This document shows positions 57,001 to 60,000 of a DNA stretch of 64,000 nt, piece after piece; the stretch's first letter is position 1; every line of letters starts with the position of its first letter. A program made the position numbers. Source of the stretch: Escherichia coli. Its GTDB lineage: Bacteria; Pseudomonadota; Gammaproteobacteria; Enterobacterales; Enterobacteriaceae. The stretch lies in assembly GCF_048403405.1 (NCBI RefSeq), contig NZ_CP183135.1, one strand, 5' to 3'.

Positions 57001-60000
57001 GCGCAGGTTCAGGCGCTTTATGCCTCTGAGACGTTGAGTCTCAAAGAGATCGCGGCGAAAACGGGGCTGACGGCCAGTACCGTGCAATATATCGTGTACG
57101 TGAAATCAAAAAATAAGCCCTACGCCACCACGGAATATGTCTCTTTTGAAACGGAGAACGCCGTTCATTACCGCGTGCAAAAAGAATTTGTCGATACGGA
57201 ACGTTCCCTGCTGGACAACATCTCTGATAACACGCGATTTCGTGAACTGTATCTGACGGACGGCACTTTTTATTGCGCCCGCAATATTAAGTATGAGGTT
57301 TTTATCTCGGAGTAACCGGAACACGCTGACCTGCCGGTTATCTTCTGGAATCTCCCGTTTTGCGAAACCGTTCCCGGAAAAATGTCATATTTCTGTCACA
57401 CTCTATGAGGATTGATAACAACAAGAGGTTGTAGGGATGAAAAAATTGATACTCGCCGCCGCTGTGGCAGGGGCTGTTTTATTGTCGTCCGCCGCGCAAG
57501 CGCAGACAACGCCGGAAGGTTATCAACTGCAACAAGTGTTGATGATGAGCCGACACAACTTGCGCGCGCCGTTGGCCAATAATGGCAGCGTGCTGGAGCA
57601 GTCCACGCCGAATCAGTGGCCGGAGTGGGATGTGCCCGGCGGGCAGCTCACCACGAAAGGCGGTGTGCTGGAAATTTATATGGGCCACTACATGCGAGAA
57701 TGGCTGGCGGAGCTGGGGATGGTCACGTCAGGCGAATGCCCGACGCCGGACACGGTATATACCTATGCCAACAGTCTGCAACGCACCGTTGCGACGGCAC
57801 AATTCTTTATCACCGGCGCTTTCCCTGGGTGCGACATTCCGGTACATCATCAGGAAAAAATGGGCACGATGGACCCAACGTTTAATCCGGTGATCACCGA
57901 TGACTCTGCGGCGTTTAGCCAGAAAGCGGTGCAGGCGATGGAAAAAGAGCGCAGCCAGATGCAGCTTGACGACAGCTATCAGCTGCTGGCGCAGATGACG
58001 GACTACAAAGATTCACCGTCCTGCAAAGAAAAACAGCAGTGTTCGCTGACCGAAGCCAAAGACGCCTTTAGGGAAGGTGCGAATAAGCAGGTCATGTCTT
58101 CCCAAGCTGACTCGTTGATTAAAATTTCGCGGATCTGGGCCGATTTTTGTCCCGCAAACACATCGAATCAGCCTATTTAGGCTATTTTTTCCACCATTTC
58201 TGGTGTTATTTCCGGTTTTTACTGAGATCTCTCCCACTGACGTATCATTTGGTCCACCCGAAACAGGTTGGCCAGGGTGAATAACATCGCCAGTTGGTTA
58301 TCGTTTTTCAGCAGCCCCTTGTAGGGGTCCGCTTGGAAAACGGAATCTATGGTCACTCCCGTTTTTGCAACACCGATTTTGACGACAAGTTGGCTTGCTT
58401 GAATCTATCCGGCGTCTGAATGGGATTTTATTCCCGCGCCTTGATGAGTTCCGCGCCTGATGAACCTCCAGAAAATATACGGCTTCAATGAGCCTTTCCG
58501 TTTTACAGGTTCCTCAACAGGCCGGTGGGCCGTTAGTATCATCAATATCAGTATTCGCAAAACCAGATCAGTAATTCTTTAAACCGGTGTATTTCTGCCG
58601 TTATGCTACATAAGTTTGCTGTCGTGCCGTTAGGGCCCAGGCTATTCTGGCCAGCTTGTTTGCCAGAGCACAAGTGACGACAAAGTTGCTTTTCCGGCAC
58701 AGTAAATCCCTGACCCAATCGGCCAATTTGCCAGACTGGTGTTCCAGTTTTTGTATGAATACCCTGGCACATTGAACCAACAAAGTTCGGATCTTTTTAT
58801 TACCTCGCTTACTAATTCCCAGCAATGTCGTCCTACCTCCCGTGCTGTACTGCCGAGGTACAAGCCCTGTTGCCGCCGCAAAGTCACGGCTGCTGGCGTA
58901 CTGCTTCCCGTCGCCAATCTCAGTTGAAATAGTACTCGCTGTCAGTGTTCCGACGCAGGGAATGCTCAGCAAGCGCTGTCCAACCTCATCTTCGTCCAAC
59001 TTTCGTTTCAACTGGGATTCCAAATCTTTAATCTGCTCAACAAGATAGTGATAATGCTGTTGTAATTTCAGCAATAACTGGCTGAGGTAAAGAGGCAAAC
59101 TATTATCCTCAAGAATGGTACTCAGTCGGCTAATAACGGCAGCTCCTCGGGGAACGCTAATGCCAAATTCCAGCAGAAAAGCATGCATTTGATTGGTTGT
59201 TTTTACCTTATCCTGAACCAGGGATTCACGGACACGATGCAGAGCCCGCATTGCCTGCTGAGATTCCGTTCTGGGCTGCACAAAACGCATAGACGGACGC
59301 GATGCAGCTTCACAAATAGCTTCGGCGTCGACAAAGTCGTTTTTATTGCTTTTAACGAACGGGCGGACAAATTGTGGTGATATCAGCTTTGGGGAATGCC
59401 CCAACTCTTCCAACTTGCGTGCCATAAAGTGAGAACCGCCACAGGCTTCCATTGCGATGGTTGTAGCGGGGCATGTCGCCAAAAATTCGATCAACTTTGG
59501 CCGGGTAAATTTTTTACGGTAAACAGCCTTCCCGCGACGATCCTGGCAATGAATATGGAAAGAGTTTTTACCCAGATCGATACCAATGAGCGCAATGTTT
59601 TCCATGATAGTTCTCCGAATGAAAGCCTGTCCTCAGCATAGTACCGGGAAGGAGGGAGTGACCATCTCATTAATTATCCCACGCTAAGACTGTTTTTTGT
59701 ACAATATGGTGTCGACTGTGCGTAATGAGCGGTATTTTCCGGATCCCAGCTTAAGATTATTACGCCAGACGTAATCTCCACTCAGATTGATATGTTCCCA
59801 GCCCAGGGGAGAAAGATGAGATACCAGTTGCTCATTTATCGGGATACCTTTTCGTTTTAGTGACTCAATAGCTCTTTCTATATATACCGTGTTCCACAAC
59901 GTGATCGCCGCTGTCAGTAACGTCAGCCCGCTGGCGCGGTAACTCTGATTCTCCAGCCCACGATCCCTTATTTCACCCAGACGGTGCATAAAGACCGCTC

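What the first reader, a model, noticed from the sequence alone, without database searches (positions are those of the whole stretch)
58324..59688. IS5075-like element has hit the terminal IRs of two different Tn3-family transposons at the same position
Copy 1 splits a Tn21-type IR next to chrA (outer GGGATCGCCTCAGAAAACGGAA / inner AATAAAGCACGCTAAG). Copy 2 splits a divergent IR (GGGGTCCGCTTGGAAAACGGAA / ATTATCCCACGCTAAG) of another transposon whose tnpA is cut by IS26. Both insertions are exactly 1327 bp, in the same orientation relative to the IR and without duplication, showing tolerance for about 8 mismatches in the target and likely inactivating both transposon ends.
Basis: seen in the sequence. 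Interest (0 to 1): 0.4.

Follow-up and report, generated by a model that had tools for sequence, protein, structure and literature searches.

The report
IS4321/IS5075 insertions in transposon end repeats
Two identical copies of a well-known RNA-guided insertion sequence (IS4321/IS5075 type) sit at the usual fixed position inside the end repeats of two Tn21-like transposon remnants on a resistance plasmid; this is real but already well described.

Summary
Two identical 1327-bp IS copies (15521-16847 and 58346-59672) each split a 38-bp Tn3-family end repeat (IR) 22|16, in the same orientation and without target duplication. Deleting copy 2 restores 5586 bp that match plasmid LC521841 exactly, including the IS26 junction.

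The element belongs to the IS1111 group and is closer to IS4321 than to IS5075. Its transposase differs from ISfinder IS4321 by 3 residues. Its DNA is 98.7% identical to an R751 IS4321 copy and 93.4% to an IS5075-type copy.

Targeting of Tn21-family IRs at this position is textbook (Partridge & Hall 2003). The chrA-side insertion is itself a published module found in hundreds of plasmids.

The "tolerance for ~8 mismatches" reading is misleading:
- The two IRs differ at 9 positions.
- Seven of these lie outside a core of about 14 bp, AAAACGGAA|AATAT.
- This core is near-invariant across 32 distinct insertion sites.
- It is complementary to two loop strands of a candidate seekRNA/bridge RNA downstream of tnp.
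- Each IR has one mismatch within the core.
- In relatives with 72-80% transposase identity, mainly the 5' loop strand changes to match their own flanking DNA.

"Inactivation" is moot, because both targets were already remnants. Novelty: already known.

The parts
15499..15520 (+). Outer 22 bp of the 38-bp IR of the chrA unit ('IRLchrA'), GGGATCGCCTCAGAAAACGGAA
   Evidence: named in PMC5034289
15521..16847 (-). IS copy 1, 1327 bp, IS4321-type (IS1111 group); tnp at 15776-16780 on the minus strand
   Evidence: identical to copy 2; annotated 'IS110-like element IS4321 family transposase' in identical plasmid segments
16848..16863 (+). Inner 16 bp of IRLchrA, AATAAAGCACGCTAAG, followed by chrA
58324..58345 (+). 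Outer 22 bp of the IR of a second, divergent Tn21-subgroup-like transposon, GGGGTCCGCTTGGAAAACGGAA
   Evidence: matches in other plasmids start exactly here, which marks the transposon end
58346..59672 (-). IS copy 2, 1327 bp. In tnp orientation the termini are TAATGAG + ATGGTCACTCCC ... GGGAGTGACCAT + AGA
58601..59605 (-). tnp gene, 334-aa DEDD transposase
   Evidence: NCBIfam NF033542 'IS110 family RNA-guided transposase', 341 bits against a cut-off of 140; PF01548 + PF02371 on the 100%-identical protein
59654..59665 (-). Left sub-terminal inverted repeat ATGGTCACTCCC, preceded by the 7-bp extension TAATGAG
58349..58360 (-). Right sub-terminal inverted repeat GGGAGTGACCAT, followed by the 3-bp extension AGA
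58401..58515 (-). Candidate seekRNA/bridge RNA core within the 255-nt non-coding region (58346-58600). It consists of a closing stem (58506-58515 / 58459-58469), a 5' target guide UAAAACGGAAA (58495-58505), a hairpin GGCUCAUUGAAGCC (58481-58494), a 3' target guide UAUAUUUUC (58471-58479) and putative donor guides AACUCAUCA (58442-58450) and GGAUAGAUUC (58401-58410)
   Evidence: inferred, RNA not shown
59673..59688 (+). Inner 16 bp of IR2, ATTATCCCACGCTAAG; contains the tnpA stop codon
59684..62092 (-). 5'-truncated Tn3-family tnpA (802 codons), 60% identical to the Tn21-type TnpA of the window
   Evidence: NF033527, 1038 bits, profile positions 174-954
62093..62912 (+). IS26 copy that truncates the tnpA
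   Evidence: 820-bp repeat family; IS26 transposase annotated at the same junction
38228..38265 (-). Third, intact and unoccupied Tn21-type IR. It is a perfect target, identical to an occupied IR in R751

Best explanation
Two copies of an IS4321-type insertion sequence (IS1111 group of the IS110 family) have each inserted site- and orientation-specifically, between bases 22 and 23 of a 38-bp terminal inverted repeat of a Tn21-subgroup-like transposon. This is the known behaviour of IS4321/IS5075.

The target is most likely chosen by an RNA made from the 255-nt non-coding region downstream of tnp (a seekRNA/bridge RNA). Two single-stranded loop segments flank a conserved hairpin. UAAAACGGAA(A) would pair with one DNA strand over positions -9..+1, and UAUAUUUUC with the other strand over -3..+5 (window orientation). 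Together they read about 14 bp, AAAACGGAA|AATAT. A second loop (AACUCAUCA / GGAUAGAUUC) would read the abutted IS ends of the circular form. The DEDD transposase then recombines the circle into the target without duplication.

Both IRs carry this core with one mismatch each. Their other seven differences lie outside it, so the two insertions show no unusual tolerance.

Shown here: the anatomy, the exact empty sites, the conservation of the core, the complementarity, and its co-variation with the target in relatives. Inferred: that the RNA is made, binds the transposase and directs insertion for this particular IS.
For: - The two 1327-bp copies are identical, each splitting an IR 22|16.
- The termini are of IS1111 type: 12-bp sub-terminal repeats with 7-bp and 3-bp extensions, as the family is defined in PMC11187229.
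- The transposase is a DEDD type.
- Exact empty sites exist for both insertions.
- Across 32 insertion sites with distinct flanks, from 25 genome contigs, the fetched plasmids and the window, -7, -6, -3, -1, +1 and +4 are invariant, -8, -5, -4, -2 and +3 are nearly so, and every position where IR1 and IR2 differ is variable.
- A 10-nt exact match, AAAACGGAAA, between the non-coding region and the target spans the insertion point; 22 of 2000 shuffles reach this length.
- Both guides lie in the internal loop of a predicted stem that is conserved in 10 relatives.
- In relatives with 72-80% transposase identity, the variable blocks of the alignment are exactly these two loop strands.
- In those relatives the 5' strand is the reverse complement of their own right flank. 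Scores are 10/10 in groups A and D and the L037 site of group B, 9/10 in G and 8/10 in C and the L035 site of B (both with a 1-nt offset), against 3-8/10 for flanks of groups with a different target.
- The 3' strand equals their own junction in groups C and D (9/9).
- Literature: IS4321/IS5075 target Tn21-family IRs (Partridge & Hall 2003, PMID 14563872, cited). A 13-bp consensus and a non-IR target, ureC, are reported in PMC8269217. seekRNAs have been demonstrated for other IS1111 members, and an IS4321 target logo was built from nearly 900 insertions (PMC11187229). A bridge RNA is listed in the right end ('RE') for the IS4321/IS5075 entry of a supplementary table of PMC11208160.
Against: - No RNA data exist for this element, and Rfam 15 has no matching family.
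- The relatives are too similar for stem covariation: only 4 pairs show changes on both sides, and the covariation term is -0.26 kcal/mol.
- The 3' guide matches the left flank poorly in groups A and B (4-5/9).
- The single site of group E fits its 5' guide only with a 2-nt offset (6/10); the guide scores higher against the flanks of D (8/10) and the window (7/10).
- The fold of the whole non-coding region has a z-score of only -2.3, and the 131-nt core -1.2.
- The 10-mer match alone has about a 1% chance expectation.
Confidence: 0.9

Rival explanations
1. The transposase protein itself recognises the IR, for example by mimicking or competing with Tn3-family TnpA binding to the 38-bp repeat. 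The non-coding region would play no part in target choice.
For: Most natural sites are full Tn21-like IRs. Position -10 and the GGGG end are frequent among sites although no guide covers them.
Against: Insertions also occur at sites that share only the short core and are not IRs: L007, L010, L015, L018, L021 and L029, plus ureC and others in PMC8269217 and PMC6052338. Relatives with near-identical termini and 72-80% identical transposases use quite different targets, and these match their own loop sequences. The conservation of -10 and the GGGG end follows simply from most targets being homologous IRs. RNA guidance has been shown experimentally for other IS1111 members (PMC11187229).
Confidence: 0.05
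2. The two copies do not reflect two insertion events. One IS-plus-flank segment was instead copied or recombined between the two places (homologous recombination between IS copies, or a duplication), so the second IR is a hybrid and not a real target.
For: The two IS copies are 100% identical and lie on one molecule. R751 and locus L009 show sites where one flank is not IR-like, so rearrangements across these IS do occur.
Against: Both rebuilt IRs exist uninterrupted elsewhere, with both of their flanks, at 100% identity. IR2 is also occupied in diverged copies of the same transposon (tnpA 96.2% and 95.7% identical), set in unrelated contexts in pEC-IMP, pKP18-31-IMP and a Hafnia plasmid, where both ends of the transposon are hit.
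Confidence: 0.02
3. The empty IR2 sites in other IncF plasmids arose by precise excision of the IS from an occupied ancestor. In that case the IS would have entered the IR before IS26 cut tnpA, and could have been what disabled the transposon.
For: IS110/IS1111 elements form circles, and bridge-RNA recombinases can excise DNA (PMC11208160). The data here do not give the order of events directly.
Against: The empty form is far more common: at least 40 listed records at 100% against 4 occupied records of this lineage. All share the same IS26 junction. A single late insertion is therefore much more parsimonious than many independent precise excisions.
Confidence: 0.03

Closest known systems
IS4321 (R751) and IS5075, IS1111 group of the IS110 family (Partridge & Hall 2003, J Bacteriol 185:6371, PMID 14563872)
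   Same: The length (1327 bp), the termini (TAATGAG + 12-bp sub-terminal repeat ... repeat + AGA), the DEDD transposase and the lack of duplication all agree. So do the fixed position and single orientation inside the 38-bp IRs of Tn21-family transposons. The IS is 98.7% identical to one R751 IS4321 copy, and its transposase is 3 aa from ISfinder IS4321.
   Different: Nothing differs in kind. It is a sequence variant (transposase WP_000427623.1) that many papers loosely call IS5075, yet it is only 93.4% identical to a copy annotated as IS5075 family.
The published module delta-orf5 - IRLchrA::IS5075 - chrA - orf98/padR - IS6100 - mphR(A)-mrx-mph(A) - IS26 (e.g. In37b, PMC5034289)
   Same: Copy 1 and its flanks match this description. 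The 2-kb segment is 100% identical in the plasmids listed, and 526 of the 5000 best-scoring records cover at least 80% of it.
   Different: None seen.
seekRNA / bridge RNA of IS1111-type elements (ISEc11, ISKpn4, ISPa11 in PMC11187229; IS621 and the survey in PMC11208160)
   Same: The RNA region lies downstream of tnp. The strand complementary to the top strand comes 5' of the one matching the bottom strand, the two matches overlap at the insertion point, and a second loop matches the joined IS ends. Relatives show natural reprogramming.
   Different: The RNA of IS4321 has not been shown experimentally in the papers I could read. I saw only an 'RE' entry for the IS4321/IS5075 group in a supplementary table. 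The guide assignment given here is my inference.
Tn21 subgroup of Tn3-family transposons (Tn21, Tn1696, Tn501 and others)
   Same: IR2 is 38 bp, starts GGGG and ends ACGCTAAG, with the tnpA stop codon inside it. TnpA matches the Tn3-family model and is 60% identical to the Tn21-type TnpA in the window.
   Different: IR2 differs from the Tn21 IR at 9 positions. The annotations I saw give the transposon no name. Complete relatives carry tnpR plus osmC/tetR/ahpD-like genes or sulP/uspA genes, not mer genes.

Membership tests
IS1111 group (IS110 family) | DEDD (RuvC-like) transposase with PF01548 + PF02371 | tested here: met
   NF033542, 341 bits against a cut-off of 140. Both Pfam families are on the 100%-identical protein P0001.
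IS1111 group (IS110 family) | Sub-terminal inverted repeats of 11-13 bp with terminal extensions of 7 bp (left) and 3 bp (right) | tested here: met
   TAATGAG-ATGGTCACTCCC ... GGGAGTGACCAT-AGA. The criterion is stated in PMC11187229.
IS1111 group (IS110 family) | Long non-coding region downstream of tnp | tested here: met
   255 nt lie between the tnp stop codon and the right end, against 67 nt upstream.
IS1111 group (IS110 family) | No target duplication; one orientation at a specific site | tested here: met
   Exact empty sites exist. All 33 sites collected have the same orientation relative to the core.
IS4321 (as an isoform, >=95% DNA identity) | Near-identity to the R751 reference copies | tested here: met
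   1310/1327 and 1288/1327 ungapped matches to the two R751 copies. The transposase is 3 aa from the ISfinder IS4321 protein given in the supplement of PMC11187229.
IS5075 (strict sense) | >=95% DNA identity to IS5075 | tested here: inconclusive
   Identity is 93.4% to a copy whose transposase RefSeq names 'IS5075 family' (L004).
IS4321/IS5075 target class | Insertion between bases 22 and 23 of a 38-bp Tn21-family IR | tested here: met
   Both copies split the IR 22|16. The same is seen in R751, pEC-IMP, the Hafnia plasmid and others.
seekRNA / bridge RNA | Two RNA segments complementary to opposite strands of the target, overlapping at the insertion point | tested here: met
   UAAAACGGAAA covers -9..+1 and UAUAUUUUC covers -3..+5.
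seekRNA / bridge RNA | Guide segments change with the target in related elements | tested here: met
   The 5' guide scores 8-10/10 against its own flank in groups A, B, C, D and G, against 3-8/10 for flanks of groups with a different target. The 3' guide scores 9/9 in C and D. It is weak in A and B, and both guides are weak in E.
seekRNA / bridge RNA | The RNA is made, binds the transposase and is needed for transposition | not testable with these tools
   This needs RNA-seq, co-purification or a transposition assay.
Tn3 family, Tn21 subgroup (target 2) | Tn3-family TnpA ending inside a 38-bp GGGG...ACGCTAAG IR | tested here: met
   NF033527, 1038 bits. The stop codon lies at 59684-59686, inside the IR. 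TnpA is 60% identical to the Tn21-type TnpA.
Tn3 family, Tn21 subgroup (target 2) | A complete unit with two inverted IRs, tnpA and tnpR | tested here: not met
   In the window only one IR and a 5'-truncated tnpA remain. Complete relatives exist elsewhere: L003, and L004 with both IRs.

The most novel reading that the evidence does not exclude
The explicit assignment of the IS4321/IS5075 guide segments may not have been spelled out in print. This covers the 5' loop strand UAAAACGGAA(A), the 3' loop strand UAUAUUUUC and the resulting target of about 14 bp. The same may apply to the small family of natural 'reprogrammed' relatives that keep the same scaffold but target TTCCTAACCA, TTTTGTGC or TTTTCATGCT sites. 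If so, the scaffold would be a ready-made natural series for studying how IS1111 guides are exchanged. The occupied IR2 in this IncF lineage is also a rare, recent event (4 plasmid records).
Probability: 0.25. Interest if true: 0.25.

Novelty: already known. Interest (0 to 1): 0.1.

Why it matters
It matters little beyond correct annotation. Recognising the split IRs lets an annotator mark the true ends of the chrA unit and of the truncated Tn21-like transposon, and name the IS correctly as IS4321-type. The analysis also illustrates why this IS can spread to any sequence carrying about 14 bp of AAAACGGAA|AATAT. That includes diverged IRs and non-IR sites such as K. pneumoniae ureC (PMC8269217). 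It further shows that counting mismatches over the whole 38-bp IR gives a false impression of relaxed specificity.

Tried and rejected
- The Rfam scan of 58200-59800 gave only a chance snoRNA hit (E = 0.85), so no curated family covers the non-coding region.
- The first genome-contig scan timed out. The repeat with a longer pattern gave 25 loci, about half of which were cut before the far IS end, so the right-flank statistics rest on 16 sites.
- Covariation in stems could not be tested with close relatives, which are nearly identical in this region. L011 and L013 proved to be truncated IS fragments, not diverged copies.
- Relatives at 71-80% identity gave few compensatory changes. The informative signal was guide/flank tracking instead.
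- Group F (Xenorhabdus, L047) lacks proper termini and was left out of the flank comparison.
- Partridge & Hall 2003 (PMC219399) is not held in the library. I cite it through papers that describe it; my recollection of its abstract (93.1% identity, 7/6 and 3/4-bp extensions) is from memory.
- I could not find a published name for the second transposon.
- I rejected the idea that the flanks belong to the IS, because both empty sites exist.
- I rejected a single duplicated segment, because the flanks of the two copies are unrelated and each matches its own empty site.
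Full report
**1. Observation**

- Copy 1: GGGATCGCCTCAGAAAACGGAA (15499-15520), then a 1327-bp insert (15521-16847), then AATAAAGCACGCTAAG (16848-16863).
- Copy 2: GGGGTCCGCTTGGAAAACGGAA (58324-58345), then a 1327-bp insert (58346-59672), then ATTATCCCACGCTAAG (59673-59688).

The two inserts are identical base for base. They are direct repeats with the outer IR half on the left in both, so they have the same orientation relative to the IR. The rebuilt 38-bp IRs differ at 9 positions: five in the outer 22 bp and four in the inner 16 bp.

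**2. The insertions are exact and the IRs are real**

*Copy 2.* Joining 58345 to 59673 gives a sequence present uninterrupted, at 450/450 identity, in at least 40 listed E. coli plasmids. The window with the IS removed matches 5586 bp of pC278_NDM5 (LC521841.1) with no mismatch or gap. That stretch includes the IS26 junction that truncates tnpA.

*Copy 1.* The empty site matches 674/674 as a single piece in the plasmids listed. Among the 5000 best-scoring records, 1243 cover at least 80% of the empty-site query, a count that can include interrupted sites, and 526 cover at least 80% of the occupied 2-kb segment.

There is no target duplication. The only ambiguity is one base: an A in window orientation could belong to either side.

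In other plasmids, matches to the copy-2 region start exactly at 58324 and sit in unrelated contexts, which confirms that 58324 is a transposon end.

**3. What the insert is**

The minus strand encodes a 334-aa protein (58601-59605).
- It matches NCBIfam 'IS110 family RNA-guided transposase' at 341 bits, against a cut-off of 140.
- The 100%-identical protein in the database carries PF01548 and PF02371.

In tnp orientation the element reads TAATGAG-ATGGTCACTCCC ... GGGAGTGACCAT-AGA. These are 12-bp sub-terminal inverted repeats with 7-bp and 3-bp extensions. There are 67 nt before tnp and 255 nt after it. These are the defining features of the IS1111 group as stated in PMC11187229.

The element is closer to IS4321 than to IS5075.
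- It is 1310/1327 and 1288/1327 identical to the two IS4321 copies of R751.
- It is 1240/1327 identical to a copy whose transposase RefSeq calls 'IS5075 family'.
- Its transposase is 3 aa from ISfinder IS4321 and 7 aa from the IS5075-family protein.
- Identical plasmid segments are annotated 'IS4321 family transposase'.

'IS5075-like' is therefore loose; 'IS4321 variant' is more accurate.

**4. The targets**

*IR1.* This is the published 'IRLchrA'. PMC5034289 describes orf5 truncated by the unit IRLchrA-chrA-orf98, with the 38-bp IRLchrA disrupted by IS5075 and followed by IS6100 and the mph(A) unit. The annotation of an identical plasmid segment shows sul1, a small ORF, the IS, chrA, padR, IS6100 and mphR(A).

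*IR2.* This ends a Tn3-family tnpA (NF033527, 1038 bits, profile positions 174-954). The gene lacks its 5' end because of IS26 at 62093. The protein is 60% identical to the Tn21-type TnpA at 35266-38232.

Complete relatives of this transposon exist.
- They have tnpA 96.2% and 95.7% identical to the window's copy.
- They occur in pEC-IMP, in pKP18-31-IMP and in a Hafnia plasmid.
- They carry tnpR plus oxidative-stress-type or sulP/uspA passenger genes.
- Their IRs are hit by IS4321/IS5075 at the same position.
- In the Hafnia plasmid both ends are hit.

The IR2 type is thus a recurrent, independently used target.

**5. This is known biology**

[quoted passage not shown] This is Partridge & Hall 2003 (PMID 14563872), as described; the paper itself is not held.
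- Insertions into diverged IRs and into non-IR sites that resemble the IR are also published. Examples are K. pneumoniae ureC with a proposed 13-bp consensus (PMC8269217), sites in F33 plasmids (PMC6052338), and even a Tn3 IRL (PMC5034289).
- A target logo for IS4321 from nearly 900 insertions is reported in PMC11187229.

**6. How much of the IR is actually read**

I collected 33 insertion sites, of which 32 have distinct 40-bp flanks. They come from 25 genome contigs, the fetched plasmids and the window.

In window orientation:
- -7, -6, -3, -1, +1 and +4 are invariant.
- -8, -5, -4, -2 and +3 are nearly invariant.
- Together these give AAACGGAA|A.TA.
- All nine positions at which IR1 and IR2 differ (-19, -16, -15, -12, -11, +2, +5, +6, +7) are variable in this set.
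- Six of the 32 sites are not IRs at all and share only the core.

The window provides an internal control. It holds five Tn3-family IRs. The three that carry the core are IR1, IR2 and an intact Tn21 IR at 38228-38265; two are occupied and one is not. The two that lack the core (9916-9953 and 3206-3243) are unoccupied.

**7. Mechanism**

The non-coding region, read in tnp orientation, contains AAAACGGAAA (58495-58504). This is a 10-nt exact match to the target that spans the insertion point, and 22 of 2000 shuffles reach that length.

Sixteen nucleotides downstream, beyond a hairpin GGCUCAUUGAAGCC, lies UAUAUUUUC (58471-58479). This is the sequence of the other strand across the junction of the commonest natural target (GAA|AATAT).

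RNA folding places both segments in the internal loop of a stem, GAGGAACCUG / GGAGGUUCAUC, and the consensus fold of ten relatives keeps this architecture.

A second region, AACUCAUCA ... GGAUAGAUUC, matches the abutted IS ends (CATAGA|TAATGAG) in the same manner (coordinates).

This is the layout described for IS1111 seekRNAs: the top-strand complement comes first, the bottom-strand match second, and the two overlap in the target (PMC11187229). A supplementary table of PMC11208160 lists 'RE' (right end) for the IS4321/IS5075 entry.

**8. Test by natural reprogramming**

I fetched relatives with 71-80% identical transposases. Those with intact ends keep the termini, the sub-terminal repeats (with matched changes on both arms) and the donor-loop sequences. 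In the alignment, the only strongly variable blocks are the two loop strands.

The 5' strand is the reverse complement of each element's own right flank.

| Element | 5' loop strand | Own right flank | Score |
|---|---|---|---|
| Window IS | UAAAACGGAA | TTCCGTTTT | 9/10 |
| Groups A/B | UGGUUAGGAA | TTCCTAACCA | 10/10 (8/10 at the L035 site of B, 1-nt offset) |
| Group D | AGCAUGAAAA | TTTTCATGCT | 10/10 |
| Group C | GCACAAAA | TTTTGTGC | 8/10 with a 1-nt offset |
| Group G | UGGUUAGGAG | TTCCTAACCA | 9/10 |

Scores against the flanks of groups with a different target are 3-8/10. The highest is the group E guide against group D's flank.

The 3' strand equals the element's own junction in groups C and D (9/9) and mostly in E (7/9). 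It fits poorly in A and B.

This supports the guide assignment for the window's IS, although the RNA itself remains inferred.

**9.

Within the guide-covered positions -9..+5, IR1 has one mismatch (+5) and IR2 has one (+2). The other seven differences lie outside. The pair therefore does not demonstrate tolerance of about 8 mismatches. It demonstrates that only about 14 of the 38 bp matter.

'Inactivation of both ends' has no effect here. The chrA unit is a fragment. The IR2 transposon had most probably lost its tnpA 5' end and its far side to IS26 before the IS arrived, because the many plasmids with the empty site share the same IS26 junction, while only four records carry the occupied form.

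**10. Verdict**

The feature is real and accurately observed, and its interpretation needs only minor correction. The phenomenon is already known, so interest is low.

Noticed in passing
window 38228-38265 (minus strand): An intact Tn21-type IR, GGGGTCGTCTCAGAAAACGGAAAATAAAGCACGCTAAG, lies at the end of a complete Tn21-like tnpA (35266-38232). It is identical to an IS4321-occupied IR in R751, yet it is unoccupied here although two IS copies are on the same molecule.
   Followed up: partly
window 9916-9953 (+) and 3206-3243 (-): Two further Tn3-family 38-bp IRs are present: a Tn2/Tn3-type GGGGTCTGACGCTCAGTGGAACGAAAACTCACGTTAAG and GGGGGCAGTCTGGAGATCGAAAAATTTTGAACGTTAAG. Both lack the AAAACGGAA|AATAT core and are unoccupied, which makes them an internal negative control.
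   Followed up: partly
L031-L037 and L049 (relatives, 77-80% transposase identity): Related IS in Morganella, K. michiganensis and Serratia keep the same ends and RNA scaffold, but their 5' guide reads TTCCTAACCA. They sit at ...|TTCCTAACCAT sites, several of them directly downstream of IS91-family (Y2_Tnp) genes, which suggests they target an IS91-type element end.
   Followed up: partly
L039-L043 (E. coli relatives, 73% transposase identity): This relative inserts in the T-run of a terminator-like hairpin, AAAAAGCCCGATTACCAGTCGGGTTT|TTTTGTGCC, in several different contexts. Both of its loop strands (GCACAAAA and GGUUUUUUU) match that site. In L042 the IS is cut within its non-coding region by another element.
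   Followed up: partly
window 58181-58323 (minus strand) and 57437-58180 (+): The DNA just outside IR2 reads ...[33 protein letters not shown], which I recall as the C-terminal end of an IS5-type transposase. This is not confirmed: the 34-aa piece gave no NCBIfam hit. It abuts a glucose-1-phosphatase gene truncated after about 217 of 413 codons.
   Followed up: partly
window 62866-63558 (+): The ORF after IS26 looks like aac(6')-Ib-cr, with Arg and Tyr at the two diagnostic positions as I remember them. This fits the IS26 - aac(6')-Ib-cr - blaOXA-1 region of IncF plasmids. I did not check it with a tool.
   Followed up: no
L005 (R751), second IS4321 copy; L009; L012: Some copies are 1326 bp, or have a right flank that is not the inner IR half. 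In R751 the flank is AATAAAGC followed by TTTAGCGTT, and in L009 it is AGTATTATG. These indicate indels or later rearrangements at IS4321 junctions.
   Followed up: no
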